From NCBI GenBank assembly GCA_000092065.1, contig CP000596.1: a DNA stretch of 64,000 nt; one strand, written 5' to 3'. The notes under the pieces were generated by a model, which did not search any database, was not told the DNA's origin, and saw nothing but the letters and a program-made list of their open reading frames with translations. The stretch is from Ostreococcus lucimarinus (lineage: Eukaryota). Below are positions 13,142 to 59,857 of the stretch, one piece after another. The stretch's first letter is position 1. The number at the start of each line of letters is the position of its first letter. The translations under genes were made by a program, and so were the position numbers.

Positions 13142-15697
13142 ATGGCGCGCGCGCGAGGTCGCGCGACGCGATGGACGACGATCGCGCTCGCGTGCGTCGT
13201 GAGCGCGATGTGCGTGTTCGGAGGCGCGACGAACGGTGCGTGGACGGAAAGATGAGCGAACGATGCGCGAAAGAAAGATGTCGACGAAGCTCGACGAAGA
13301 TTTCCGACCGCGCGCGCGATCGAGTCGCGACGCGCGGGCGGCGCGGCGCGAGCGAGCGCGAGATGCGTGAACGATGACTGACCGAGCGCACACGTCGACG
13401 ACGCAGTGCGCGCGGAGGAAGACGCGACGACGGACGCCGGCGCGGCGAAAATCCCAGACTTCGCCCCGGGGGCGGAAAAGTTTGAGTTCCAGGCCGAGGT
13501 CTCGCGATTGATGGACATCATCATCAACTCGCTGTACTCGAACAAGGATATTTTCTTGCGCGAATTGATCTCGAACGGCTCGGATTCTTTGGACAAGATT
13601 CGATTCATGTCGCTCACCGACAAGGAGCAATTGGGAGGCGGCGAAAACGCCGATCTCGACATTCGCATCAAGGCTGACAAGGAGCGCAAGGTGCTCACGA
13701 TTCGCGACCGAGGCATCGGGATGACGAAGGACGACTTGATGAACAACCTCGGTACGATCGCCAAGTCCGGAACGTCCGCGTTTTTGGACCAAATGGCGTC
13801 TGGCGGCGACATGTCTTTGATCGGACAGTTCGGCGTCGGTTTCTACTCCGTCTACCTCGTCGCCGACTTTGTCGAAGTGCGCTCGAAACACAACGACGAC
13901 GACAAGCAATGGGTGTGGCAATCTAAGGCTGATGGCAACTTTGCCATCTCCGAGGACGAAGGCGAACCGCTCGGCCGCGGGGTGGAGATCAACATCTACC
14001 TCAAGGAAGAAGCGCAAGAGTACCTCGAAGAGACCAAGCTTCAAGCTCTCGTCGAGCGTTACTCCGAGTTCATCAACTTCCCCATCTACCTGTACAACTC
14101 CAAGGAAGTCTCTGAAGAAGTACCCGTCGAAGCCGGCGACGAGGATGAAGAAGCTGACGTCTCCGGTGACGACGCCGAAGACGACGAGGAAGGCGACGAT
14201 GAGGAAGGCGACGAAGACGAAGAGGACGACGAACCGAAGACGAAGACCGTGACCAAGACCGTTTGGGATTGGGAACGCCTGAACGACGTCAAGGCGATCT
14301 GGCTCCGAAGCACGAACGAAGTTGAAGAGGAAGAGTACACCAAGTTCTACCAAGCTCTCGCCAAGAACTCTGAAGAGCCGCTCGCGTATTCGCACTTCAA
14401 GGCGGAGGGCGACGTCGAATTCAAGGCCATTCTCTACATCCCCGAACGACCGTCGCCGGACTACTACGACAACTACTACAGCCGCGCGAGCGCGCTCAAG
14501 TTGTACGTCCGCCGTGTCTTCATCTCTGACGAGTTCGACGAGTTGTTGCCCAAGTATTTGAGCTTCATTAAGGGCATCGTCGACTCGGACACGCTCCCCT
14601 TGAACGTGTCTCGCGAAACTCTCCAGCAACACACGAGCTTGAAGACGATCAAGAAGAAGCTCGTTCGCAAGGCGCTCGACATGATTCGCAAGCTCGCGGA
14701 AGAAGGCGGCGATGCGGAAGATGACGATGCCAAGCCCGAAGGCGAAGATGACGCGGCGACGAAGGACGAGCCGAAGTATGAAAAGTTCTGGAAGTCGTTC
14801 GGCAAGGCGATCAAGCTCGGGATCATCGAAGACGCGAGCAACCGCGTGCGCCTCGCCAAGCTTCTTCGATTCCAAACCTCGAAGTCCGACGGCAAGCTCG
14901 TCTCTTTGGAGCAGTACGTCGAACGCATGAAGGAGGGCCAAAAGTCGATTTATTACATCACCGGAGAATCCATCGACGCGCTCAAAAACTCTCCGTTCCT
15001 CGAGAAGCTCATCTCCAAGGACTTCGAAGTCATCTACTTCACCGATCCCATCGATGAGTACACCATGCAAAACTTGACTGAATTCGATGATTTCAAGTTC
15101 TCCAACGCGAGCAAGGAAGACCTCAAGTTTGGCGACGCGGACGACGACGAAAAGGCTCGCTTTAAGAAGACGAAGGAGGCGTTCAAGTCTTTCACCACGT
15201 GGTGGAAGAGCAAGCTTCCGGACACCATGATTGAAGCGGTCAAGGTCTCCAACCGCCTCTCCACCACCCCGTGCGTCGTCGTGTCGTCCAAGTACGGCTG
15301 GTCCGCAAACATGGAACGCATCATGAAGGCGCAAGCCATGGGCGACGAATCCCGTCACGAGTACATGCGCGGCAAGAAGACGCTCGAAGTGAACCCGAGA
15401 CACCCGATGATCGCGGCGCTCAAGGAACGCGCGGCTACGGATCCGGACTCCGAAGAAACGGAAACGTTGGCCAAGCTCATGTTCGAAACCGCGATGTTGG
15501 AATCTGGTTTCTCGTTCGACAAGCCTCAAGAGTACACCTCTCGCGTTTTCGACTTGTTGAAGTCGAACATGGGCATCGAAAAGGATGCCGAACTCGTCGA
15601 CGAGACCCAGTTCCACTTGCCGGAAGAAGAAGACGAGGAAGATAAAAAGGAAGAAACCAAGGAAGAAACCAAGGAAGCTCCGAAAGACGAGCTCTAA
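13142..15697 (+). CDS. HSP90B: ER-type HSP90 (GRP94/endoplasmin); two exons: 13142..13235 and 13407..15697
   Basis: Exon 1 encodes MARARGRATRWTTIALACVVSAMCVFGGATNG (signal peptide) and is followed by an in-frame stop, so an intron is required. The join is phase 1, donor GTGCGT, giving ...TNG|VRAEEDATTDAG.... Exon 2 carries the HSP90 ATPase motifs (LRELISNGSDSLDKIR, GQFGVGFYS) and a C-terminal KDEL. 794 aa. Confidence 0.85.
13236..13406 (+). other. Spliceosomal intron of the GRP94 gene (171 nt)
   Basis: Donor GTGCGT. ACTGAC branch motif at 13377-13382, 23 nt upstream of the CAG acceptor. Confidence 0.8.
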
Positions 15698-18944: not shown

Positions 18945-19928
18945 TCACTCGTCGTCGTCGTCGTCGTCGTCGTCGTCCATGAACTCGGCAAACTCGCCGA
19001 GATCCTCCGCGGGCGCGGCGGCGGGCGCGGGCGCCTCGACGCCGAAGGCGACGGCGTCGCGCGCGTCGGCGAGCGCGCTCGGCTCGATCGCCGTCTTGGG
19101 CGCGCGCGCGCGCGCACCGGCGGTCTTTCTCGCCTCGGCCGCGCGTTCGAGCTCGATCGAGCTCGCGTCGACCGCTTTCGGCGGTCCGATGTCCCAGTTA
19201 TCGTTCAACAAATTCATCTCCGTGGGCACGTGAATACCGGGGCGATTGGAGAGTTTGGGCAACGGATGCCTGTTCACCACCGCCGCCATCGCGTGCGCGT
19301 CCGCCAAACTCGGCGGTTCGATGAACTGCCGCATTAATATCGCCTTGGCTCCTATTTTCACATCCTCCGCGTCGATCGTTCCTCGCCCCGCGTGTCTCGC
19401 CGCGCACGCGCTCTCCTCCAGCGCCTCGCTCGCGTACCGGTGCATGAACTCCATCCCTTGCGAGATGACCTTACGATCGACGTCCGTCACGCCCTGCGCG
19501 GATCGAATCAGTTCGCGCGTCGTCGTCAGTCCTTCCTTCGCGCGTTCGTCGTCCTCGCGCGTCGCGTCGGTCGCGTCGCGCGTCTCTCGCACCATCTCTC
19601 GCAGGATCTCTCGCGCCGCCGCCGCGTCTCTCGGCGCGCGTCGTTTCCCTCGTCCCTCGTCCTCGTCCTCGTTCGTCTCCAACGCTCGCGCGTCGTCGTC
19701 TTCGCGCACGCGCGCGCCCTCTCGCGCGCTTTTCTCCTCGTCCTCGTCCTCGTCGTCGTCGCCCTCGAGCGTCTCGCGCGCCTCGCGTCGCTTCTTCGCC
19801 TCCGCGGCGAGTCGAATGGCTTTCTTTTGTTCGGGCGTCAGCCCGCTGTTCACCATCGCCGCGACCGAGGGGAGTCGATCGCGTCGTTTCTTCGCCGACG
19901 CGCTCGGCGCCTTGCGCTTCGGCGCCAT
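18945..19928 (-). CDS. TAF9: Histone-fold protein, TAF9-like (TFIID subunit)
   Basis: 327 aa. Histone fold RKVISQGMEFMHRYASEALEESACAARHAGRGTIDAEDVKIGAKAI aligns with TAF9 [42 protein letters not shown]. Conserved NRHPLPKL...RPGIHVP box. Poly-Asp C-terminus, as in TAF9. Confidence 0.55.
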   Translation of the reverse strand: MAPKRKAPSASAKKRRDRLPSVAAMVNSGLTPEQKKAIRLAAEAKKRREARETLEGDDDEDEDEEKSAREGARVREDDDARALETNEDEDEGRGKRRAPRDAAAAREILREMVRETRDATDATREDDERAKEGLTTTRELIRSAQGVTDVDRKVISQGMEFMHRYASEALEESACAARHAGRGTIDAEDVKIGAKAILMRQFIEPPSLADAHAMAAVVNRHPLPKLSNRPGIHVPTEMNLLNDNWDIGPPKAVDASSIELERAAEARKTAGARARAPKTAIEPSALADARDAVAFGVEAPAPAAAPAEDLGEFAEFMDDDDDDDDDE

Positions 19929-20062: not shown

Positions 20063-20579
20063 ATGGCGCGCGAGGGTAAAGCGCGCGCGTCGCACGTCCT
20101 CGTCAAGCACGCGGATTCGCGACGACCGGCGAGCTGGCGCGATCCCGAGGGCGCGCACATCGCGAAAAAGGCGCGCGGCGCGCGCATCGCGAACGCATGA
20201 AAAATGAGTCGCGCGACGACGGACGGACGGATGGACGGACGGACGGACCGCGACGCGGCGTCGCGCGCGAAGACGATTCGCGTTAAACGCGATGACTGAC
20301 GAATCCGCGACGACGACGACGACGCAGACGAAAGAGGCGGCGATCGACGAGCTGCTGCGCTATCGCGACGCGGTGGCGAACGGCGAGGCGACGTTCGCGG
20401 ACGTCGCGAAAAAGGTGAGCGATTGCAGCAGCGCGAAGCGGGGAGGAGATTTAGGGGAATTTGGACCGGGACAGATGCAAAGGGCGTTCGAGGACGCGAC
20501 GTACGCGCTGAAGATTGGCGAGATGAGCGAGGCGGTGGAGACGGATTCGGGCGTGCACGTCATCTTGCGCACGGGGTGA
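20063..20579 (+). CDS. PIN1: Pin1-type parvulin peptidyl-prolyl isomerase (no WW domain, plant Pin1At-like); exons 20063..20170 and 20328..20579
   Basis: Exon 1 encodes MAREGKARASHVLVKHADSRRPASWRDPEGAHIAKK. Exon 2 encodes TKEAAIDELL...SDCSSAKRGGDLGEFGPGQMQRAFEDATYALKIGEMS...DSGVHVILRTG. The 120-aa product aligns end to end with Arabidopsis Pin1At (119 aa). No GT donor exists between the conserved HVLVKH codons and the in-frame stop at 20198, so the model needs a GC-AG intron. Confidence 0.6.
20171..20327 (+). other. Putative GC-AG intron of the Pin1 gene (157 nt)
   Basis: 5' end is GCGCGC (non-canonical). ACTGAC at 20296-20301 lies 25 nt upstream of the CAG acceptor at 20325-20327. Confidence 0.5.
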
Positions 20580-20666
20580 GCGACGCGCAAAATATCGATC
20601 GTGTAATCATGAAAAAGATACCGCGCGGTGTGCGCGAGTCGAAGAGTGTCGTCCCTCGCGCGTCCA

Positions 20667-21218
20667 CTACGCCGCCGCGAGCGTCGCGAGCGTCGCGAGC
20701 GTCGCCGCGAGCGTCGCCGCGAGCGTCGTCGGCGTCCCTCGCGCCGCCGCGCTCGGCGCCGCCGCGACGGTGTTGTCCCAATTATTGCACGCCATGTGCG
20801 ACGCGCCCGGCATGTACATCCCGTTCATCGCGTGATTCGCCGGTCCGCAATTCATCGCCACCGACTGTTGCGTCGCCGTCGCCGCGCTGCCCTGCATCAT
20901 GTGCGACGCGTTGAAGCAATCGAACGTCTTCCCGTACTTGCTCACCTGCACCGGCGCCATCGCCGCGTTCGACGCGGCGCACACGTCGTCGCACCGCTCC
21001 GCCGTGCACCCCTCGTACGTGTACGCCGCCGTCGTCGCGCCGCACCACGTGTTCGTCGCGTTCCCGATCCCGCACGCCGTCGCCGTCGTCGGCGTCGTCG
21101 TGTCGCAGTCGGCCGTGCACGCGTACGTTCGCGACGCCGGGACGTTCGCGACGACGGGCGTGACCGCGAGCGCGAGCGCGCAGAGCGCGCGCAGGACGAT
21201 CGCGCGCGCGACGCGCAT
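20667..21218 (-). CDS. Small secreted Cys-rich protein with hydrophobic (LAAT)n C-terminus, a possible GPI signal
   Basis: 183 aa. Signal peptide MRVARAIVLRALCALALAVTPVVA. About 12 Cys. Ends LAATLAATLATLATLAAA. Confidence 0.45.
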   Translation of the reverse strand: MRVARAIVLRALCALALAVTPVVANVPASRTYACTADCDTTTPTTATACGIGNATNTWCGATTAAYTYEGCTAERCDDVCAASNAAMAPVQVSKYGKTFDCFNASHMMQGSAATATQQSVAMNCGPANHAMNGMYMPGASHMACNNWDNTVAAAPSAAARGTPTTLAATLAATLATLATLAAA

Positions 21219-21452
21219 CGCGAGGACCGCCGACGAATGACGGTCGGTCGCCGACGAATGACGGTCGGTCGCGTGTCTTCCGCCGCAGCCGGCGTCGCGC
21301 GCGTCTCGATGGCGTCCGTCTCGACGACGCGCGCGGTGTCGACGACGCGCGCGCGCGCGGGACGGCGTCGCGCGACGCGCGGCGCGCGCGCGACGGCGGA
21401 CGACGACGGACGCGACGACGACGCGCGACGCGTCGGACGACGCGCGGCGACG

Positions 21453-22550
21453 ATGGGCGCGAGCGCGACGGTCGCGGCGCTGGCGGTGACGGCGACGCCG
21501 GCGTCGGCGCGCGCGGTGGGAACGATGTGCGGGTACTTTGATGAATTCAGCGCCGGGCTGGCGCCGGCGTACGCGTTCAGCACGCCGTGGAGCGAGGGCC
21601 TGGTCGCGGACGCGACGTGGGTTCGCGGCGTCGGTGATTATAAAAAGGCGAAGAAGGAAGCGAACGCGCCGGTTTTAGCCGTCAGCGACGGGCCGGGGGT
21701 GTCGCACGCGTACATGAGCGCGCTCGAAACGCTGAGCGGCGAGGTCGGCGGCGCGCGGGAAGTTTTCCTCTACGACCAAAGAGGCTGCGGCAAGTCAAAG
21801 TCGGCGACGGACGGCGAGGTTTACGATTTGGATTTATACCTGAACGAGTTGCGAACGGTGGTGAGAGAGTTGCGATTGGTCGAAGAGGGCGGTGCGCACG
21901 TGCTGGCGCACGGGTATTGGGGCGCTCGTCTCGCCACGGCGATGGCGCTCGAGCGACCGAATTTCGCGAAGACGCTGACGCTCGTGTCGCCGACGGCGTC
22001 GCGCGCGACGGAGGTCCGCGACTGGCGTCGAGCGCTGGACGACATATCGCCGGAATCGCGAAACGTGATTCTGGCGTATGAGGCTGATTTGGACGACTCG
22101 AAGCGCGACGCGTACGACGCCGGCATGCGCGAGTTTAGCTCGCGCTTCGTCTCCACGCGAGGCGCGGCGGGCGCGTGCTTTGACGTCGCGCTCGCACCGC
22201 GCACGAGTGATGCGCAACGGCTCGCGATCACGGGTGGTCGTTACTTCACGGCATCCGGTTCGCTCGCGTCTGACTCGATTCAACTCGATGACTTGGGCTC
22301 GCGTCTCGGCGCCAACGGCGTACGAGCCGTGCGCGTCGTCCGAGGGGCGAACGACGCGGTTTCGGAATCGAGCGCGAAGGAAATCGTGAATGCGATCAAC
22401 GCGAACGATGGCGAACCGTTTTGCGCGTACGACGAAGTCTCGAACGCGGGATCGTGCGTCTTTCTCGATCGTGGCGATTACTTTTACGAATCTTTGAACG
22501 TCTGCGTCGAGCTCGCCGAAGACGAAAGCGGAGGCGCTCGACGCTTGTAA
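21453..22550 (+). CDS. Alpha/beta hydrolase, proline-iminopeptidase-like (S33 fold), with the nucleophile Ser replaced by Tyr
   Basis: 365 aa from ATG at 21453; an upstream in-frame Ala/Arg/Ser-rich extension could be a transit peptide. Motifs SDGPGVSHAYM and LYDQRGCGKS. Nucleophile elbow reads AHGYWGA where GGSWG is expected. Confidence 0.6.
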   Translation: MGASATVAALAVTATPASARAVGTMCGYFDEFSAGLAPAYAFSTPWSEGLVADATWVRGVGDYKKAKKEANAPVLAVSDGPGVSHAYMSALETLSGEVGGAREVFLYDQRGCGKSKSATDGEVYDLDLYLNELRTVVRELRLVEEGGAHVLAHGYWGARLATAMALERPNFAKTLTLVSPTASRATEVRDWRRALDDISPESRNVILAYEADLDDSKRDAYDAGMREFSSRFVSTRGAAGACFDVALAPRTSDAQRLAITGGRYFTASGSLASDSIQLDDLGSRLGANGVRAVRVVRGANDAVSESSAKEIVNAINANDGEPFCAYDEVSNAGSCVFLDRGDYFYESLNVCVELAEDESGGARRL

Positions 22551-23557: not shown

Positions 23558-24542
23558 TTATTTAAGCAACTCTTGACCGAAGAGGACGACGAATTTGCCA
23601 AAGCGTCCGACGACGTCGATGGTCCCGCCGACGGTGGGCAACTCCAAGCGAACCGGGGTTTCCTTCGAGGCCGTGCCTTCGAAGAAAGAACCCTCGCTCG
23701 TGCGCGGAGGCAAACCAGGGCCGAACGCCGGGTGTTCGAGCAACGCCGCCAAAAGCTGCGTCCCTCGCAGCGCGTTGGTGAGAGGCATGTGTCCCGGCGC
23801 GGCGTCCGCTCGCCATTGAAATTCTTGCGGAAACTTGCGATAGTCTCCATTTTCCCCAGTCGTCCAGTCAATCTTCTTGAAGAACTTCGCCCACTGCTTC
23901 TTTTGAGAGATCCAAATCTTTCTTTGCACGCTGAATCCAAATCTGTTGTTACTGTAAAACTTCCACAACTCGTCGATTGTTCGCAAATCCGTCGCCGGCA
24001 TGTTATCCACCTCGGTGAAGTACACCCACTCGCGATCCTCCGCATCTTCGCCCGCCAGCACGCACATCAACCGGCGGTGCTCGTCGTCCGCCTTTTCCCA
24101 CTCACCGGCTTCGAGCAAGGCCTTGAACGGGGCGTAGTCAACCCCCATCTGTCGTCGAAGCGTTTCGTCTTCGTCAGTCTCGCGCGAGTGGATAGGGTCT
24201 CTCTCTCGCGCGCGCGATCTCCGCGCTTCCCGCGCGCGTTTTCGCGCGTCGCGCGACTTTACGACCGCGCGCGGTCGTGCGAAGCACCACCGCGTCGTCG
24301 CGCGCGTCGTCGCGCGCGCGCGTCGCTTCACGCGCGCGTCGAGCGCGTCGCGAACGACGCACCTCGGAATCGAGCGCCGGTGGCGCCGGACCTTCGGAGG
24401 CTTCTCCGGACGACGTCGCGCTGGATTCGCCCGTGCCGACCGCGCGGAGGGGGTGGGCGACTCTGGATCTATGCGTTTTCGCGACGCGCGCGACGGGGGC
24501 GTGCGCGACGCATCGACCGTTCGCGACGGCGGAGGCCAACAT
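23558..24542 (-). CDS. GUN4: GUN4 tetrapyrrole-binding Mg-chelatase regulator; exons 24363..24542 (transit peptide) and 23558..24148
   Basis: Exon 1 encodes MLASAVANGRCVAHAPVARVAK...PPALDSE (chloroplast-transit-like) and ends at a GTGCGT donor. ACTGAC then CAG sit immediately before ATGGGGGTTGAC, the start of exon 2. Exon 2 is the GUN4 core (VDYAPFKALLEAGEWEKADDEHRRLM, LWKFYSNNRFGFSVQRKIW). 256 aa, against 265 aa in Arabidopsis. Confidence 0.75.
24149..24362 (-). other. Intron of the GUN4 gene (214 nt)
   Basis: Donor GTGCGT. ACTGAC about 22 nt upstream of the CAG acceptor that directly abuts the internal ATG. Confidence 0.7.
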
Positions 24543-31963: not shown

Positions 31964-33421
31964 ATGCCGCCCGATGAATCGCTCGAGGCGCGCGACGCGA
32001 CGAAAGACGTCGCGGACGACGCCCGCGCGTCGTGGTGGCGCGAGGAACTGCGCGCGGTGGCGCACATTTGTCCACCAATCATGACGCAGTTCGGGTCGCA
32101 GCAGTTGTTGATGGCCACGCAGCTCGTGTACTGCGGAAACGAATCGCGCGAGGCGCTCACGACGATGACGATAGCGGCGACGATGTGGAACATGCTCTGG
32201 ATGGCGATCACGGGCGCCGGAGGGACGATGGACACGCTGGGAAGCCAGGCGCACGGCGCGGGGGACGCGCGCGCCGTCAAGTCGTGGGCGCTGCTCACGA
32301 CGTGCGCCATCACCGCGTTTTGCGTGCCCGCGAACGCGATTTTAGCGGCGGGGAAAGAGATCGCGATCGGGGTGTTCAAGGCTGATAAATCTAGGGCTGG
32401 AGAGATTCGCGACTGCGCGCTCATCATGTGCGGGAGTTTTTATCCACTCGCGGCGACTCTGGGTTTACAGAAATACTTGAGCGTTCGGCGGAAAGTCGGA
32501 GCCGTGGGGCTGACTTCGGTGGCGACGCTGTTCGTAAACATCGCGTTTCATCACGCCCTCGTCAAGCAGCACAAAATGGGAGTCATCGGTAGCTCGATCG
32601 CCATGGTCGCGGCTCGGGCGATGAACCTCGCGATGTTGCTCGCGTACGTCTGCGTGGACGAGCGATGGTGGGCGACGGGTGCGCTTGACGAATGGCGCTC
32701 GGCGAAGGCGGCGATAACCAGGGACATGGTCGCACGCGTCGCGCACTTGTCGACTCAAGGCGTCATCATGGTGTTCGGCGAGGCTTTCTCGTTTGAAGTC
32801 ACCGTCGTTTTGGCTGCGCAACTGGGCGAAGTATCCCTCGGCGCGCACATGGTGATGCTCAATATTTGTACGATGACCTTCATGATGGGACCGATGTCGT
32901 TCGGCACCGCGGCATCGATTAGAGTTGGAAATTTATTAGGTATGCGAGACCCGCGCGGAGCGAAGCGTTCGGCGTGGTTAATAACGTCGATGTCTCTCAC
33001 GTTTATGGCGGGGTGCGCGTTTATGATACTCTTCGCGATTAAACCTATCGCGAGGCTGTACACTGGAAACGACCCCGAGATCACGGCTACCCTCATCAAG
33101 ATCGCCCCTTACGCCGCCGCTTTCCAGATATTCGACGCCTCGCTCGGATGCTGTAACGGCATCCTTCGCGCGTGCGGGAAACAGGCGTTCATCGCGAAGA
33201 GCAATCTCGCCTCTCTGTGGTTGTGCGGTTTGACCTCGGGCGCTTTAATCACCTTCGTCGGCGACGAAGGGGTGAAGGGTTTATGGGTGGGACTCATGAT
33301 CGGCGTCGGGATGGCGGGTTCGTTTCTCGCATCGGTGGTGTACCGTTTAGACTGGCAACACGAATCATTTTTAGCCACCCGCGCGGCGACCAACGTCTTT
33401 CGCGGCGGCGCGGCGCTGTAG
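31964..33421 (+). CDS. MATE (multidrug and toxic compound extrusion) family transporter
   Basis: 485 aa. 12 predicted TM helices. N-terminal WWREELRAVAHICPPIMTQFGSQQLLMATQLV is typical of the MATE/DTX family. Confidence 0.85.
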   Translation: MPPDESLEARDATKDVADDARASWWREELRAVAHICPPIMTQFGSQQLLMATQLVYCGNESREALTTMTIAATMWNMLWMAITGAGGTMDTLGSQAHGAGDARAVKSWALLTTCAITAFCVPANAILAAGKEIAIGVFKADKSRAGEIRDCALIMCGSFYPLAATLGLQKYLSVRRKVGAVGLTSVATLFVNIAFHHALVKQHKMGVIGSSIAMVAARAMNLAMLLAYVCVDERWWATGALDEWRSAKAAITRDMVARVAHLSTQGVIMVFGEAFSFEVTVVLAAQLGEVSLGAHMVMLNICTMTFMMGPMSFGTAASIRVGNLLGMRDPRGAKRSAWLITSMSLTFMAGCAFMILFAIKPIARLYTGNDPEITATLIKIAPYAAAFQIFDASLGCCNGILRACGKQAFIAKSNLASLWLCGLTSGALITFVGDEGVKGLWVGLMIGVGMAGSFLASVVYRLDWQHESFLATRAATNVFRGGAAL

Positions 33422-35766: not shown

Positions 35767-37307
35767 TCATATCGCGAAAAACTTACCTCGCCCACCTCGC
35801 CCATCGGCGCCGTGCTTGATGAACGTGCCGTTTGAGTTAGACGGCGCTCGCGGCGAAGACTTCAAAAATGACCCGGCGCGTCTCGTCTTGTTCGTCGCCG
35901 CCGACCCGCTCGCCGCCATCTTTTGTCGCTTGCGCTCCACGCGCGCGTCGACGTCGTTTAAAATATTCGCCAAAACGTCGTCTTCGACGCCATCGTCGTC
36001 GTCGTCGCTCACCAAGTTGATTTCGTCGCGGTTTGACGTACGCTTCGGCGGCGGCGGCGCCAACTTTTTCATCAATTCGTCGTCGCCTCGACGCAACGAC
36101 TTCTTCACGACGCGCTTCTTGTCCGCGACGCGTTGCGTTGGCGGATACGCGAACTCGCTCGGATCATCCACTCCCCACGCGTGCCTGCTATTGGCGCGAC
36201 CGCCGAGCTGGAAATCGCCCGTCGACGTCGGCGGCGCGGGCGCCGCCGGCTTTGGTTTCGCCGCCGTTTGCGTCTTCGCGACGTCGCGAAACGCGTCCAA
36301 TTTCGCCTCCAGCGCCTTGACGTCTTTTTCCTTTTCGCGAACTTTGCGCGCGAGCGCGTCGTATTGCTCTTGCTGCGACGCGATTTGTTTATTCTTCGCG
36401 CACAAGTTTCGCACGAGCGTCGTCATCGCCAAGCGCGGATCGCTCCCCTCCAGCCTCTTCAACATCTCCCTCTCTCCGAGCGACGACGCGCTCGCCGCGA
36501 CTTCTCTCTCGATGCGCTCCTTGTCTTCGAACTTTGACAAACTCCGCGTCAACTCGTCGTTCTTCTCTCGCAACGTCTTCATCTCCCTGGCGTCCCGGCG
36601 AACCTTTGACGCGAGCGTGTCTTGCGCCAACCGAATCGCGCTCAACTCATTCTTCGCCTTTTCCAACGCCCGTCGCGCGTCATCGCTCTCCGTCGCGCGT
36701 CGCCCGATCGCATCCTTTTCCCGCTTTAACGTCTCTATCGCGTCCAGCGCCTCCCGCATCCGCTCTCGCTCTCGCCTCAGCTCTCGCGCGCACTCGGCGT
36801 ACCGCTCGTCCGCGCCTCGCGCGCCGTCCTCCCCCCCCCTCGACCGCCGCCTGCCCGGCGTCGGTTGACTCCGCCCCCCGTGCGCGTCGTCAACGCCGTC
36901 ATCCATCGTTTTATGATCCAGGTATATCGTCACGCAATCGTCGTACGCGAATTCGCGTTTACACGTCGGACACGTCGCCTCGCCGCAATCGTCGCGTCGT
37001 CCTCGTCCTCCCCTTTCCTCCCTCGCCCGTCGCCGCGTCTCCACGTCGTGCCACTTCGAGATGCATCGCACGTGATACACGTGTCCGCATCCTCGCAGCG
37101 CCTGTCGCGCGACGCCCGTCGCCCGCGTCGCTCGTCGTCAGTCGTTCGTTCGCGTCGCATCCGTCAAACGTTCGTTTCAAATCGCGCCTTCGTCTGTTCG
37201 TCATCGGCGTCGTTCGTCGCGTCGCGTCGCGTCGTTCGGTTCGTCGCGCGCGCACGCACCACACACTTCCCCGCGCACGTCTCCAGGCACACCGCGCACC
37301 GCGACAT
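35767..37307 (-). CDS. RING-H2 finger plus long coiled-coil protein; exons 37260..37307 and 35767..37101
   Basis: Exon 1 encodes MSRCAVCLETCAGKCV (C1-x2-C2). It joins phase 0 at a GTGCGT donor to ALRGCGHVYHVRCISKWHD...CPTC (C3-H-H-C...C-x2-C). The join restores a complete RING-H2, which the track ORF otherwise truncates. This is followed by about 300 aa of heptad-rich coiled coil. 460 aa. Confidence 0.65.
37102..37259 (-). other. Intron of the RING-H2 gene (158 nt)
   Basis: Donor GTGCGT. gACTGAC about 35 nt upstream of the CAG acceptor. Confidence 0.65.
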
Positions 37308-42934: not shown

Positions 42935-43411
42935 ATGTCCGCCTTCGTCCCCGTTCCCGGCTGCGCCACGCGCTTCCGCGTCCTCAACCAGGCGCCGCCG
43001 TCCGCCCCCGTCGTCGAGCGCGGCGACGTCGTCGTCGTCCACGCCAAGGGCGTCGTCAAGGAGACGCAAAAGACGTTCTGGTCCACCAAGGACCCGGGAC
43101 AGAAACCGTTCGAGTACACCGCCGGCGTCGGCGGCGTCATCACCGGTGCGTCGCGCGCGTCGTCGTCGCTCGAGAACCGAGCGCTCGCGCGCCCGCGACG
43201 CGCGACGCCGCGCGACTGACGATGAACGATCGCGAATCGAATCGCCGCAGGCTGGGACCGCGGCTGCCTCGGCGCGCGCGTCGGCGAGACGCGCGAGCTC
43301 GACATTCCCGCGAGCGAGGGCTACGGCGCCGGAGGATTCCCGGCGTGGGGGATCCCGCCGAACGGCGCGCTCGTGTTCGAGATCGAGGTGCTCAGCGTGC
43401 GCGGAAAGTAG
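42935..43411 (+). CDS. FKBP12: FKBP12-type peptidyl-prolyl isomerase; exons 42935..43145 and 43251..43411
   Basis: Exon 1 encodes ...GDVVVVHAKGVVKETQKTFWSTKDPGQKPFEYTAGVGGVITG. Phase-1 GTGCGT donor. Exon 2 encodes WDRGCLGARVGETRELDIPASEGYGAGGFPAWGIPPNGALVFEIEVLSVRGK. The product aligns with the full FKBP12 domain, 123 aa. It is hidden inside the spurious N-terminal extension of the DDX11 track ORF. Confidence 0.8.
43146..43250 (+). other. Intron of the FKBP12 gene (105 nt)
   Basis: Donor GTGCGT. ACTGAC at 43215-43220, about 28 nt before the CAG acceptor at 43248-43250. Confidence 0.8.
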
Positions 43412-46282: not shown

Positions 46283-47266
46283 TTATTCGTCGCTGTCGTC
46301 GTCGTCGTCGTTCGCGTCGCTCGTCCACAGCGTGAGATTGTCGCGCAAAAGCTGCATGATCAAGGTGGAATCCTTGTAAGATTCGTCCGTCAGCGTGTCC
46401 AAATCGGCGATGGCTTCCTCGAACGCCGTCTTGGCGAGTTCGCACGCCTTGGTCGAATCGTTGCCGATTTCGTAATGGAACACCGAGTGGTTGAGCGCCA
46501 AACCGAGTCGCACGGGGTGCGTCGGCGGTAATCCATCGGTCGAACCCTTCCCGTTCGCCATCGTCGTCGCCTCCGCGTACGCCTCGTCCGCGTTTTTACT
46601 CGCCTCTTCGCGTTCATCACCGCTCGAAACCTCGGCGAGGTAGCGATAGTAATCCGCCTTCATCTTCAGGTAAAACACCACGCTCTCCCCATCCCCCGAC
46701 GCCTTGCTCAACAATCGCCCGTCGAGCACCTCCAACACGTCGGCGCAAATATCCTTCAACTCCTTCTCCACGCGCGTTCGATACCCCCTCACCTTTTCCG
46801 CCTGCGCCTCGTGTCCCTTCCCTCGCTCCTTCTCCTCGATCGAGTTCAAGATTCTCCACGACCCGCGTCGCGCGCCGATCACGTTCTTGTACCCCACGCT
46901 CAGCATGTTTCGCTCATCCGTCGTGAGCGCGTCGACGCCCTCGAGCGCGCACAGCGCCCGCATCGCCTTCACTTGTTCTGCGTCCGCGTCGCGCGCCGCG
47001 TCGCGTCGATCCGTCAGTCGCCTCGTCCCGACGCGTCATCGCGCCCGCGCCGTTCGCACGCGTCGATCGCGTCGCGCGCGCGACGCGTCGATCCGCGACG
47101 CGCCGCGCGCGCCCGCGCGCGCCTCGACGCGATCGATCCTTCGTTCGTCCGTCGCGCCGTCGATCGCGCCGTCGATCGCGTCGGACGTCGACGCACCGTC
47201 GTGTCGCTCCGCCTGCTCGGCGAGTTTCGCCTCGAACACGCATCGCTGGCGCGCGTCGAGCGACAT
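46283..47266 (-). CDS. 14-3-3 protein; exons 47197..47266 and 46283..46977
   Basis: Exon 1 encodes [23 protein letters not shown], ending at a phase-1 GTGCGT donor. Exon 2 encodes (E)[13 protein letters not shown]...[23 protein letters not shown]...[19 protein letters not shown]. 254 aa with an acidic C-terminus. Confidence 0.9.
46978..47196 (-). other. Intron of the 14-3-3 gene (219 nt)
   Basis: Donor GTGCGT. gACTGAC about 35 nt upstream of the CAG acceptor. Confidence 0.85.
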
Positions 47267-57246: not shown

Positions 57247-58906
57247 ATGACGCGCGATGACGCCGACGGGGGCGCGCGGGATGATTTATACGACGCGCTC
57301 GGCGTCGCGCGGGACGCGACGAAGACGGAGGTGCGCGCGAGACGACGCGAGGACGACGCGACGAGGACGATGGATGCGTTTCGATGACGACCGCGTGGAT
57401 AGGGGAGGGGCGACGACGACGACTGACGGCGAGGCGCGACGACGGCGCGACGACGGCGCGGCGTAGGTGCGACGGGCGTATCGAAATTTGATCACGCGCG
57501 CGCATCCCGATAAGGGCGGAGACGCGGTGACGTTCGCGAGGATCCAACGCGCGTACGACGTGCTGAGCGACGACGCGAAGCGCGCGTCGTACGACGAGAC
57601 TGGGACGTTTGAAAAGACGGTCGAAGAAGAATTGCTCGATGAATTCGGTGGAGGGGTGTTTCGCGATAAGATGAAGGAGGAGGAAGCGCGCAAGGAGTCT
57701 CTGGCCGAGGCGCTCGTGAAGACGGAGAAGGAGAAGGGGTCGCACACCGCCGGATTCGAAGCGTGGCTCCGAGCGCGCGGACCGGATTCGAACAAGACGA
57801 TCGGGGTCGAAGACATGATCGATCGATTCGGGGTGAACAAAGGTTCGTACGACGAAGTGGTGCTACCGAAGATTCGTGCGTACCAGGCGAGCGTCACAGC
57901 GGCGAACGCGATTAAATTGGGATCGGCGGCGATTCCTCCCACGCTCGAGTGGGGCGAGGTGCTCGTCAACGTGCGCGTCGCGCCGATTAATCCCGCCGAT
58001 ATCGACGCCAAGACGCTCGCTTCGCGCGCGAAATTCCCTTTCGTCGCTGGATCCGATGGTGTCGCCACCGTGGTGAAAGTCGGCGCGGGCGTGAAATCTC
58101 TCAACGAAGGCGATTGGGTGCTGCCGTACAAAGCCGAGATGGGCACGTGGCGCTCGCTCGCGGTGTGGAAGGAGAAGGACCTAATCAAGCTTCCTTCGGA
58201 CATTTTACCCATGGAATACGCGGCGATGATGCGTGAAATGTGCGTCGCGTACCGTTTACTGGAAGACTTCGGAAGCTTGAAACCGGGAGACGCCGTGGTG
58301 CTCAACGCCGCGACGTCCACCGTCGGTCAGTGCGTCGTGCAACTGTGCGCCATGCTCAAGCTTCGCGCCGTCGCCGTCGTGCGCTCGCGGAAAGATTTCG
58401 ACAAGACGGCGGCGTGGTTGAAATCACTCGGCGCTTCGGAGGTGTTGAAAGATGAAGGCTCGATCGCGACCGAGCTCACGTCGCGAAACTTGTTCGCCAA
58501 GCCGAGACTGGCGCTCGACGCCGTCGGCGGCGCCTCGGCGGTGCGTCTCGCCGAATCCCTCCAACCCGGTTGTCCGCTCATCGTCTACGGCAACATGAGC
58601 GGTCGCGCGGCGACGTTCCCATGGCACGCCTGGACGCAATCCGCACTCATCGTTCGCGGGTTCTCGTTGCGCCAATGGATGACTGAAAACAAGAAAAAGG
58701 TGCCCAAGATGATGGAGACGCTCGGCAAGCTCGCGCGCGCCGACAAACTCGCGATTCAGTACACCGACTACGAACTCTCGAGCGAGTTCGAGGAGGCGCT
58801 CGAACACGCGCGCGAGGACGATCGATGCACCAAAGTACTGTTACGCGTGAACGATATCGGGACGACGTACGACAGCGCCGAAAACGCCGCCTCGCCGACG
58901 GCGTGA
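57247..58906 (+). CDS. J-domain fused to a mitochondrial-type trans-2-enoyl-CoA reductase (MECR/ETR1, MDR superfamily); exons 57247..57330 and 57467..58906
   Basis: Exon 1 encodes MTRDDADGGARDDLYDALGVARDATKTE. Phase-0 GTGCGC donor. Exon 2 continues the J-domain (VRRAYRNLITRAHPDKGGD...YDETG), has an acidic linker of about 75 aa, then a MECR-like enoyl reductase (VNVRVAPINPADID, GDWVLPYKAEMGTWRSLAV, LNAATSTVGQCVVQLCAMLKLRAVAVVRSR). 507 aa. Confidence 0.75.
57331..57466 (+). other. Intron in the J-domain region of the DnaJ-MECR gene (136 nt)
   Basis: Donor GTGCGC. ACTGAC at 57422-57427, 39 nt upstream of the TAG acceptor. Confidence 0.7.
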
Positions 58907-59131: not shown

Positions 59132-59857
59132 TTAGTAGAGTTCTTCCTCCATGTGCGTCTTGACCGTGCAGTCCGACGTCGGGTACGCGACGCACGTGAG
59201 CACGAAGCCGTTACCCATTTGGTCGTCGTCCAAGAAAGATTGGTCGGATTGGTCGATGGAACCAGCCTGCGCGCGATCGTCTCGTCAGTCTCGTCATCCA
59301 GAAACGTCCCATCGTCGGTTCGCGACTCGTCGAGAGTCCCTCGCGGGCGAGTGACGTCAACGTACCGTGACCTTACCCGCGCACGACGAGCATGCGCCCG
59401 CGCGGCACGAGTACGGCAAGTCGATGCCGGCTTCCTGCGCGCGTCGCAAAAGAAATCACCCCTCCGTCAGTCTCGCGCCCTCGCGACGCCCGCGCGTTCG
59501 CGCGCGACGCGCCCGACGCGCATCGCGTCGATCGCCCGATCGTTGGGCGGCGCCGCGTCAGCGTCGCGCGACGCGATTCGCCCCCGTTCCCGCGCGCGCG
59601 ACGCCGCGCGCGACGCCGCGCGCGTCGCGACCCGACGATTAAAAATTCGCTCGAGCGTTTCGCGCACTCACCTCAGCGGCGTCGAGGATGTACGTGTCGT
59701 CCGCGCACTCGATCGCTTGCGCCCCCTCCGGGGTTTCGAGCGTGACCTGGAAGCGCGCGATCGTCGATCGGCGCGCGACGGCGGCGGAGGATCGGCGCGC
59801 GCCCGCGAAGGACGCGACGGGGGCGGCGGTGACGGACATCTTCGTGACGGCGGACAT
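59132..59857 (-). CDS. PETF: Plant-type [2Fe-2S] ferredoxin with transit peptide; three exons: 59672..59857, 59366..59434 and 59132..59266
   Basis: Exon 1 encodes [62 protein letters not shown], donor GTGAGT. Exon 2 encodes [23 protein letters not shown], donor GTACGT. Exon 3 encodes [44 protein letters not shown], then a stop. 129 aa. All four Fe-S cysteines are present. Confidence 0.85.
59267..59365 (-). other. Ferredoxin intron 2 (99 nt)
   Basis: GTACGT donor. gACTGAC about 17 nt upstream of the CAG acceptor. Confidence 0.8.
59435..59671 (-). other. Ferredoxin intron 1 (237 nt)
   Basis: GTGAGT donor. agACTGAC 34 nt upstream of the CAG acceptor. Confidence 0.8.

What the first reader, a model, noticed from the sequence alone, without database searches (positions are those of the whole stretch)
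20063..20579. Pin1-type parvulin requires a non-canonical (GC-AG) intron
The conserved N-terminal strand (ASHVLVKHADSRRPASWRDPEG) and the rest of the PPIase domain (TKEAAIDEL...SDCSSAKRGGDLG...) are in different frames, separated by an in-frame TGA at 20198. No GT dinucleotide exists between the essential HVLVKH codons and that stop. Splicing AAG|GCGCGC (20171) to the ACTGAC-CAG acceptor (20325-20327) yields a 120-aa protein colinear with Arabidopsis Pin1At (119 aa), with the same 6-residue loop. Either a rare GC-AG intron is used or there is a T-to-C sequencing error in the donor.
Basis: seen in the sequence. Interest (0 to 1): 0.5.

Follow-up and report, generated by a model that had tools for sequence, protein, structure and literature searches.

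The report
GC-AG intron in algal Pin1 gene
A small Pin1-type prolyl isomerase gene of the green alga Ostreococcus lucimarinus is split by an ordinary but rare GC-AG intron, which is real rather than a sequencing error and explains why the public gene model lacks its first exon.

Summary
Exon 1 (20063-20170) and exon 2 (20328-20579) of a Pin1-type parvulin lie in different frames, with an in-frame TGA at 20198. No GT lies between 20103 and 20207. The only join colinear with intronless homologues is AAG|GCGCGCG...GACTGACG...CAG|ACG. It gives 119 aa, not 120.

The window is Ostreococcus lucimarinus CCE9901. Eight independent metagenome contigs, including two diverged sister lineages, all keep AAG|GCGCG(C/T). 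Their intron interior drifts to 62-94% identity, with lengths of 155-172 nt in all three mod-3 classes, while the exons have no indels. A T-to-C sequencing error is therefore excluded.

Apart from C at +2, the intron matches the species consensus (GTGCGTG donor, GACTGACG branch point). It also matches the eight GT introns I mapped in this window. This is a normal U2-type GC-AG intron.

The practical result is an annotation fix. XP_001421810.1 / A4S8S8 (95 aa) starts at an ATG inside the intron. It lacks the exon carrying the first catalytic His and the phosphate-binding Lys/Arg-Arg.

The intron position is not shared by six other sampled lineages, which suggests a lineage-specific gain. No transcript evidence could be obtained. 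Interest is low.

The parts
20063..20170 (+). Exon 1 of the Pin1-type parvulin gene: 36 codons, MAREGKARASHVLVKHADSRRPASWRDPEGAHIAKK. It carries the first catalytic His (H11) and the phosphate-binding K15/R20/R21. The public model lacks it.
   Evidence: From codon 6 it is 95-100% identical, with no indels, in 8 related contigs.
20171..20327 (+). 157-nt U2-type GC-AG intron, phase 0.
   Evidence: It is the only join colinear with intronless homologues. Length varies 155-172 nt in all mod-3 classes, and identity to the window falls to 62-94% while the exons stay fixed.
20171..20177 (+). 5' splice site GCGCGCG, preceded by AAG. The species consensus is GTGCGTG. C at +2 is the non-canonical base; C at +6 is also seen in a GT intron of this window.
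   Evidence: Consensus from PMC2483917. GCGCG is invariant in all 9 sequences.
20198..20200 (+). In-frame TGA that ends the exon-1 reading frame if the intron is retained.
20218..20248 (+). (GACG)n microsatellite inside the intron, polymorphic in length and sequence among strains.
20292..20294 (+). Intronic ATG used as the start codon by the public 95-aa model XP_001421810.1 / A4S8S8.
   Evidence: This ATG is absent in sister lineage L003.
20294..20301 (+). Branch-point motif GACTGACG. The branch A is at 20299, 28 nt from the 3' splice site.
   Evidence: The motif equals the O. lucimarinus consensus. CTGAC is conserved in all 9 sequences.
20325..20327 (+). 3' splice site CAG, the first AG after the branch point.
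   Evidence: CGACGCAG invariant.
20328..20579 (+). Exon 2: 83 codons plus the TGA stop, TKEAAIDEL...SDCSSAKRGGDLG...SGVHVILRTG. It holds the catalytic Cys, Ser and second His.
18945..19928 (-). Divergently transcribed TAF9 (TFIID-31kDa) gene. It leaves a 134-bp shared upstream region and no room for a WW-domain exon.
   Evidence: This synteny is conserved in O. tauri and in the metagenome relatives. In M. commoda TAF9 is also the upstream neighbour but on the same strand.

Best explanation
The locus is a two-exon gene for a single-domain, plant-type Pin1 parvulin in Ostreococcus lucimarinus. It encodes a phospho-Ser/Thr-Pro specific peptidyl-prolyl isomerase of 119 aa.

The exons are joined by removal of a 157-nt intron (20171-20327). 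The major (U2-type) spliceosome removes it using a GC instead of a GT at the 5' splice site. Every other signal is the species' normal one:
- AAG before the donor.
- GCGCG at +3 to +7 (consensus GCGTG).
- The branch-point motif GACTGACG, 28 nt upstream of the first AG (CAG).

Shown here:
- The frame break and the absence of any GT donor.
- The unique colinear join.
- Evolutionary conservation of the GC donor, branch point and acceptor against a freely drifting intron interior.
- Truncation of the public gene model.

Inferred, not shown: that the junction is actually used in RNA, and how efficiently.
For: 1. Sequence facts: frame shift, TGA at 20198, no GT between 20103 and 20207.

2. Enumeration of joins: 0 GT-AG and 33 GC-AG in-frame joins. 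Only 20171/20327 gives ...HIAKK|TKEAAIDEL, matching the intronless genomic ORFs P0001/P0002 (...HISKR-TKEAAIDEL) and the O. mediterraneus transcriptome protein P0003 (...FITKK-TKEAAIDEL).

3. The spliced product aligns without gaps to Pin1At 1J6Y (3.6e-44) and matches Pfam Rotamase over residues 11-117.

4. Conservation: 8 independent contigs from at least 7 samples keep AAG|GCGCG[C/T], CTGAC and CGACGCAG|ACG.
   - Exons are 95-100% identical with no indels.
   - The intron is 62-94% identical, 155-172 nt long, in all three mod-3 classes.
   - A Ser codon in exon 1 switches TCG to AGT while keeping Ser.

5. Comparison set: 8 other introns in the same window are 99-237 nt long. They have donors GTGCGTG, GTGCGTC (four), GTGAGTG, GTACGTT and GTGCGCG, a GACTGAC[GC] branch point 18-40 nt from the 3' splice site, and YAG acceptors. 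This intron sits inside all those ranges.

6. Published O. lucimarinus consensus for non-chromosome-2 introns: GTGCGTG and GACTGACG (PMC2483917).

7. GC donors are a known minor class in relatives: 1.5% in Micromonas commoda and 25.6% in M. pusilla. Gene predictors that require GT miss them (PMC4815162).
Against: There is no transcript evidence.
- The spliced 119-aa protein is absent from a 15-billion-protein collection that includes transcriptome-derived proteins.
- Two scans of the JGI metagenome contig collection for the spliced junction found nothing. That collection may hold few or no Ostreococcus transcripts, so this is weak negative evidence.

In the reference strain the donor deviates from consensus at two positions (+2 and +6), so splicing could be inefficient.
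Confidence: 0.9

Rival explanations
1. The donor is really GT, and the C at 20172 is a sequencing or assembly error in the reference genome.
For: GC differs from GT by one transition. The rest of the site matches the GT consensus.
Against: Eight independently assembled metagenome contigs (L001, L002, L003, L007-L011) from at least seven ENA/JGI samples carry the same C. They include two lineages diverged by about 4-5% in the exons and about 35% in the intron.
Confidence: 0.01
2. The public single-exon model is right. The gene starts at ATG 20292 and makes a 95-aa protein, and the upstream Pin1-like 36 codons are a dead remnant.
For: This is the deposited annotation (XP_001421810.1 / A4S8S8). 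No spliced transcript was found.
Against: - The 12 residues before TKEAA are not conserved. The ATG is missing in L003, L002 uses a different frame and start, and strain variants shift frame there.
- Exon 1 is under clear purifying selection.
- The 95-aa product would lack the equivalents of human Pin1 H59, K63 and R68/R69 and the first beta strand.
- Donor, branch point and acceptor are conserved as splice signals.
Confidence: 0.04
3. A different splicing solution is used: another in-frame GC donor (20180, 20189, 20195), another acceptor (20334, 20336), or a two-step or otherwise non-canonical event.
For: 33 GC-AG in-frame combinations exist in the reference sequence.
Against: - The alternative donors are not conserved. 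In L001 the only in-phase GC before the stop is AAG|GCGCGT.
- The alternatives add or delete residues relative to every homologue.
- They lack the AAG|G.GCG context.
- The acceptors at 20334 and 20336 lie beyond the first AG after the branch point.
- The GT at +5 of GCGCGT in sister strains would shift the frame.
Confidence: 0.03
4. The gene is a decaying pseudogene that is no longer spliced productively.
For: It has a non-consensus donor (+2 C and +6 C in the reference). There is no transcript-derived protein in the databases. L009 has a 1-nt insertion in codon 3.
Against: - Both exons are intact and nearly invariant across strains, while the intron and flanks drift.
- No second Pin1-type parvulin is present in this window or was seen among the close hits.
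- The L009 indel sits in a contig whose name (contig_N) suggests a long-read assembly; that reading is my inference. The other close contigs do not share the indel.
Confidence: 0.02

Closest known systems
U2-type GC-AG introns, the main non-canonical class (about 0.5-1.5% of introns in most eukaryotes)
   Same: GC at +1/+2, AG at the 3' end, a good match to consensus at the remaining donor positions and in the -3 to -1 exon context (AAG), and a normal branch point and spacing.
   Different: Nothing mechanistic. It occurs in an intron-poor genome whose non-chromosome-2 introns have unusually rigid signals (4.8 bits at +3 to +6). In the reference strain it carries a second deviation, +6 C.
GC splice donors of Micromonas (van Baren et al. 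2016, PMC4815162)
   Same: Same algal order (Mamiellales). GC donors were missed by GT-only gene predictors, just as here.
   Different: In M. pusilla most GC donors belong to repeated introner elements. This intron has no repeated copies in the window beyond low-complexity matches. It resembles the sporadic 1.5% class of M. commoda.
Arabidopsis Pin1At (PDB 1J6Y), a single-domain plant Pin1
   Same: 119 aa, no WW domain, ungapped alignment over residues 1-118, the same 4-residue longer beta1-alpha1 loop relative to human Pin1, and the catalytic and phosphate-binding residues present.
   Different: About 60% identity read from the alignment, not computed (65% to the Amaranthus homologue P0016). 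Gene structure differs among green lineages.
Public model XP_001421810.1 / ABP00104.1 / UniProt A4S8S8 (O. lucimarinus CCE9901, 95 aa)
   Same: Identical to exon 2 over its last 83 residues.
   Different: It starts at an intronic ATG (20292), adds 12 non-conserved residues (MTDESATTTTTQ) and omits the 36 residues of exon 1.

Membership tests
U2-type GC-AG intron | GC at intron positions +1/+2 and AG at the 3' end | tested here: met
   GCGCGCG...CGACGCAG at 20171-20327. Conserved in 9 of 9 sequences.
U2-type GC-AG intron | The remaining donor positions and exon context fit the species' U2-type consensus | tested here: met
   AAG|G-C-GCGCG against consensus GTGCGTG. Sister strains have GCGCGT, so only +2 differs. 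GTGCGCG is used by a GT intron at 57331.
U2-type GC-AG intron | Branch-point motif at the normal distance from the 3' splice site | tested here: met
   GACTGACG, with the A 28 nt from the 3' splice site. The window's eight GT introns range 18-40 nt. The motif matches the published consensus.
U2-type GC-AG intron | Removal restores a reading frame colinear with homologues | tested here: met
   It is the unique colinear solution among 33. Ungapped alignment to Pin1At and match to intronless relatives.
U2-type GC-AG intron | The junction is observed in RNA | tested here: inconclusive
   No spliced junction in the JGI metagenome contigs. The spliced protein is not in the protein collection. O. lucimarinus ESTs and RNA-seq could not be reached with these tools.
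U12-type (minor spliceosome) intron | Donor [AG]TATCCTT and branch point TCCTTAAC | tested here: not met
   The donor is GCGCGCG and the branch point is GACTGACG.
Introner element (repeated intron family, as in Micromonas) | Many near-identical copies in other introns of the genome | tested here: not met
   blastn of the intron against the 64-kb window gives only short low-complexity matches (at best 75% over 69 nt). None of the 8 other introns is alignable to it over its length. This tests the window only; the whole genome was not searched.
Pin1-type parvulin (phospho-specific PPIase) | PPIC-type rotamase domain | tested here: met
   Pfam PF00639, 8.9e-23, residues 11-117.
Pin1-type parvulin (phospho-specific PPIase) | Catalytic His/Cys/Ser/His and the basic phosphate-binding cluster (human Pin1 H59, C113, S154, H157; K63, R68, R69) | tested here: met
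   The alignment to human Pin1 and Pin1At shows H11, K15 and R20/R21 in exon 1, and C68, S109 and H112 in exon 2. The human residue numbers come from my knowledge of Pin1; the aligned motifs HxLVKH, SRR, SDCSSAK and SGVH are seen directly.
Pin1-type parvulin (phospho-specific PPIase) | N-terminal WW domain (animal and fungal Pin1/Ess1) | tested here: not met
   The protein starts 10 residues before the first catalytic His. TAF9 on the opposite strand lies 134 bp upstream. This is the plant/algal single-domain subtype, like Pin1At.
Pin1-type parvulin (phospho-specific PPIase) | Isomerase activity on pSer/pThr-Pro | not testable with these tools
   Needs a biochemical assay.

The most novel reading that the evidence does not exclude
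The intron is a recent, lineage-specific gain in the O. lucimarinus clade, and it has carried a GC donor since before that clade diversified.

The phase-0 site between K36 and T37 is empty in:
- O. tauri.
- Two intronless Ostreococcus-like lineages.
- Micromonas commoda.
- Coccomyxa viridis.
- Klebsormidium nitens.

Four of these (O. tauri, M. commoda, C. viridis, K. nitens) have introns at other positions in the same gene; the two Ostreococcus-like lineages have none.

If true, this is a datable intron gain in one of the most intron-poor and signal-rigid green genomes, maintained with a suboptimal donor.
Probability: 0.5. Interest if true: 0.35.

Novelty: new member of a known kind. Interest (0 to 1): 0.18.

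Why it matters
The main value is annotation hygiene. The reference protein for O. lucimarinus Pin1 (XP_001421810.1 / A4S8S8) is truncated and would be predicted inactive, whereas the real gene encodes a complete 119-aa enzyme.

It also shows concretely that GT-only gene prediction loses exons in Ostreococcus, as was shown for Micromonas. The genome may therefore hold more such cases.

A secondary point is that a GC donor can persist across diverged lineages even where 5' splice sites are unusually uniform. The position-specific presence of the intron also gives a small data point on intron turnover in Mamiellales.

Tried and rejected
- **Spliced junction in metagenome contigs.** I searched the JGI metagenome contig collection twice: once with the exact 26-mer and once with a gapped pattern allowing any donor within 30 nt. 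Both gave 0 hits. This is uninformative, because transcripts may not be in that collection.
- **Exact look-up of the spliced protein.** The 119-aa sequence is not in the protein collection.
- **NCBI gene table for the chromosome.** I tried to reach it through the MATE transporter, to read off annotated introns. Only short metagenome contigs came back. I mapped the window's introns by hand instead.
- **Automatic frame choice.** My script picked wrong frames for the FKBP and ferredoxin introns, because all frames are open in this GC-rich DNA. I fixed those by reading the translations.
- **Rfam.** A gathering-threshold scan of the whole window found no snRNA or any other family.
- **Literature.** Searches for GC-AG statistics in Ostreococcus, or for this parvulin, found nothing specific.
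- **Naming the intronless lineages P0001/P0002.** Their clusters carry no organism names.
- **Readings considered and rejected.**
  - U12-type intron: wrong donor and branch point.
  - Introner element: no copies in the window.
  - Use of the GT at +5 of GCGCGT in sister strains: it shifts the frame.
  - Read-through by frameshift: this would insert about 50 non-conserved residues into a fixed-length loop.

Full report
**1. What is in the sequence**

- On the + strand, an ATG at 20063 opens a 45-codon ORF that ends at TGA 20198-20200.
- Its first 36 codons read MAREGKARASHVLVKHADSRRPASWRDPEGAHIAKK.
- The remainder of a parvulin domain (TKEAAIDELLRYRD...SDCSSAKRGGDLGEFG...SGVHVILRTG*) runs in frame +1 from 20328 to 20579.
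- GT dinucleotides occur at 20076, 20089, 20096 and 20102, and then not again until 20208. No canonical donor can therefore follow the HVLV codons and precede the stop.
- I enumerated every G[TC]...AG join that leaves an open frame from 20063 to 20579. There were no GT-AG solutions and 33 GC-AG solutions.
- Only the join 20170/20328 (intron 20171-20327, 157 nt, phase 0) gives ...DPEGAHIAKK|TKEAAIDEL.
- The product is 119 aa.

**2. The product is a complete plant-type Pin1**

- The spliced protein matches Pfam Rotamase over residues 11-117 (E = 8.9e-23).
- It aligns without a single gap, residues 1-118, to Arabidopsis Pin1At (PDB 1J6Y, E = 3.6e-44).
- Relative to human Pin1 it has the same four extra loop residues as Pin1At.
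- Exon 1 alone matches a plant Pin1 N-terminus at E = 8e-14.
- Exon 1 supplies the first catalytic His and the Lys/Arg-Arg cluster (HVLVKH..SRR). In Pin1 that cluster binds the substrate phosphate. This functional assignment is established knowledge of the family; the aligned motifs are seen.
- There is no WW domain and no room for one. TAF9 is transcribed divergently only 134 bp upstream.

**3. Organism and public annotation**

- An ORF in the window (31964-33421) is identical to XP_001421816.1 of Ostreococcus lucimarinus CCE9901, on a 428,333-bp record.
- The public model of this parvulin, XP_001421810.1 / ABP00104.1 / UniProt A4S8S8, is the 95-aa single-exon ORF that starts at ATG 20292. 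That ATG lies inside the intron.
- The 119-aa spliced sequence is not present in the 15-billion-protein collection.

**4. It is not a sequencing error**

- The homology search returned many metagenome gene calls identical in exon 2 but with variable N-termini. It also returned two sister lineages at 86-87% identity.
- I fetched eight such contigs from at least seven ENA/JGI samples: L001, L002, L003 and L007-L011.
- All of them read GAAAAAG|GCGCG(C/T). All have CTGAC 28-34 nt before an invariant CGACGCAG|ACGAAAGAGG.
- From codon 6 on, the exons are 95-100% identical to the window and have no indels.
- The intron is 62-94% identical. Its length is 155, 156, 157, 159, 160, 161 or 172 nt, covering all three residues mod 3. 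This is the signature of non-coding sequence between two constrained exons.
- Within exon 1, a Ser codon changes from TCG to AGT while still encoding Ser.
- In the strains with GCGCGT, the GT at +5 cannot serve as donor, because the frame would be lost.

**5. The junction is the expected one**

- Two related lineages carry the gene as an uninterrupted genomic ORF. One of them, P0001, lies on a 19-kb scaffold that keeps the TAF9 neighbour.
- Those ORFs read ...DPDGEHISKR-TKEAAIDEL.
- The O. mediterraneus protein, whose listed sources include the MMETSP transcriptomes, reads ...DPEGAFITKK-TKEAAIDEL.
- The proposed join reproduces exactly this spacing.

**6. It looks like every other intron here except at +2**

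- Irimia and Roy (PMC2483917) report that EST-confirmed O. lucimarinus introns outside chromosome 2 have the atypical, highly uniform donor GTGCGTG (4.8 bits).
- They also report the branch point ACTGAC in 87% of these introns, extended to GACTGACG in 66.5%.
- I mapped eight further introns in the window:

| Gene | Strand | Intron coordinates |
|---|---|---|
| GRP94-like Hsp90 | + | 13236-13406 |
| FKBP | + | 43146-43250 |
| Ferredoxin (two introns) | - | 59435-59671 and 59267-59365 |
| 14-3-3 | - | 46978-47196 |
| RING protein | - | 37102-37259 |
| Unnamed gene | - | 24149-24362 |
| DnaJ | + | 57331-57466 |

- Their donors are GTGCGTG, GTGCGTC (four times), GTGAGTG, GTACGTT and GTGCGCG.
- All eight have GACTGAC[GC] 18-40 nt before a YAG, and lengths of 99-237 nt.
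- The parvulin intron has AAG|GCGCGCG, GACTGACG at 28 nt, CAG and a length of 157 nt. It falls inside every range.
- Its +3 to +7 bases are identical to those of the DnaJ intron.
- It is not U12-type, since the donor and branch point are wrong.
- It has no repeated copies in the window, so it is not an introner.

**7. Context in the literature**

- GC donors make up 1.5% of Micromonas commoda introns and 25.6% of M. pusilla introns.
- They were largely absent from initial gene predictions, because most predictors require GT (PMC4815162). The truncated O. lucimarinus model fits that pattern.
- I found no paper giving GC-donor statistics for Ostreococcus or discussing this gene.

**8. Intron position**

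The phase-0 site between K36 and T37 is unoccupied in six other lineages.

| Lineage | Introns in this gene |
|---|---|
| O. tauri | One canonical intron after SSGK\|RGGD (AAG\|GTGCGTG...GACTGACG...CAG) |
| P0001 and P0002 lineages | None |
| M. commoda | One, after KAFE\|DGAF |
| Klebsormidium nitens | Two: phase 1 in G28 and phase 1 in G77 |
| Coccomyxa viridis | Three: after VKHR, within RRGG\|DLG, after ALKV |

Parsimony favours a gain in the O. lucimarinus clade. Without the species tree placement of the intronless lineages and the structure in clade B and D genomes, this remains an inference.

**9. What is missing**

- No RNA evidence could be obtained. Two scans of the JGI metagenome contigs for the spliced junction returned nothing.
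- The O. lucimarinus ESTs and RNA-seq are outside these tools.
- Actual use and efficiency of the junction are therefore inferred from conservation and colinearity.

**10. Verdict**

This is a genuine, evolutionarily maintained U2-type GC-AG intron, an ordinary member of a well-known minor class.
- The sequencing-error alternative is excluded.
- The concrete new information is that the reference gene model is N-terminally truncated and should be replaced by the two-exon, 119-aa model.
- Interest is low. The only mildly novel angle is the probable lineage-specific origin of the intron in an intron-poor genome with rigid splice signals.

Noticed in passing
window 20292-20579 (+): The public O. 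lucimarinus protein XP_001421810.1 / A4S8S8 (95 aa) begins at an ATG inside the intron. It lacks the 36-residue first exon, and its first 12 residues (MTDESATTTTTQ) are translated intron.
   Followed up: yes
L012 1501-1964 (O. tauri), L015 501-1004 (M. commoda), L017 501-1522 (K. nitens), L018 301-1247 (C. viridis), L004 3001-3432: The same small Pin1 gene has introns at entirely different positions in each green lineage sampled, and none at all in two Ostreococcus-like metagenome lineages. This indicates high intron turnover in a 119-codon gene.
   Followed up: partly
window 20218-20248; L001/L007/L010 equivalents; L003 about 2890-2935: A (GACG)n / (GGAT)n-type microsatellite sits in the intron and varies between strains. 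Similar GGATGGATGG runs occur just upstream of the start codon of the RING gene, about 100-130 nt upstream of its intron at 37102-37259 (-).
   Followed up: no
window 20302-20324: [quoted passage not shown] Several other introns of the window look the same.
   Followed up: no
L011 (ERZ27313181 k141_35944) 55-620: This contig combines an exon 1 of the L002/L003 type (MSSEG..., GGCAGT) with an intron and exon 2 of the L010 type. It is either a natural recombinant haplotype or a chimeric metagenome assembly.
   Followed up: no
L009 (ERZ10646569 contig_21986), about 1368: A 1-nt insertion (ATGGCGCAGCG versus ATGGCGCGCG) puts the start codon out of frame in the contig otherwise closest to the window. 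It is probably an assembly indel.
   Followed up: no
window 57331-57466 (+) and 24149-24362 (-): The DnaJ-domain gene uses donor GTGCGCG and acceptor TAG. The intron at 24149-24362 ends immediately before an ATG (CAG|ATGGGG), so it may lie in a 5' UTR or join an upstream coding exon.
   Followed up: partly
window 20667-21218 (-), 20628-22550 (+): Downstream of the parvulin gene is a repeat-rich, very GC-rich stretch with overlapping long ORFs on both strands. The minus-strand ORF (183 aa, signal-peptide-like N-terminus, Cys-rich) varies in length among strains (186-219 aa calls) and has no Pfam hit on record.
   Followed up: no
L016 (Logan SRR17220663_3858) 501-851: The M. commoda Pin1 occurs as an uninterrupted ORF on this contig, next to spliced-looking neighbours. 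It is probably an assembled transcript, which shows that Logan assemblies can provide junction evidence for Mamiellales where the run is RNA-seq.
   Followed up: no
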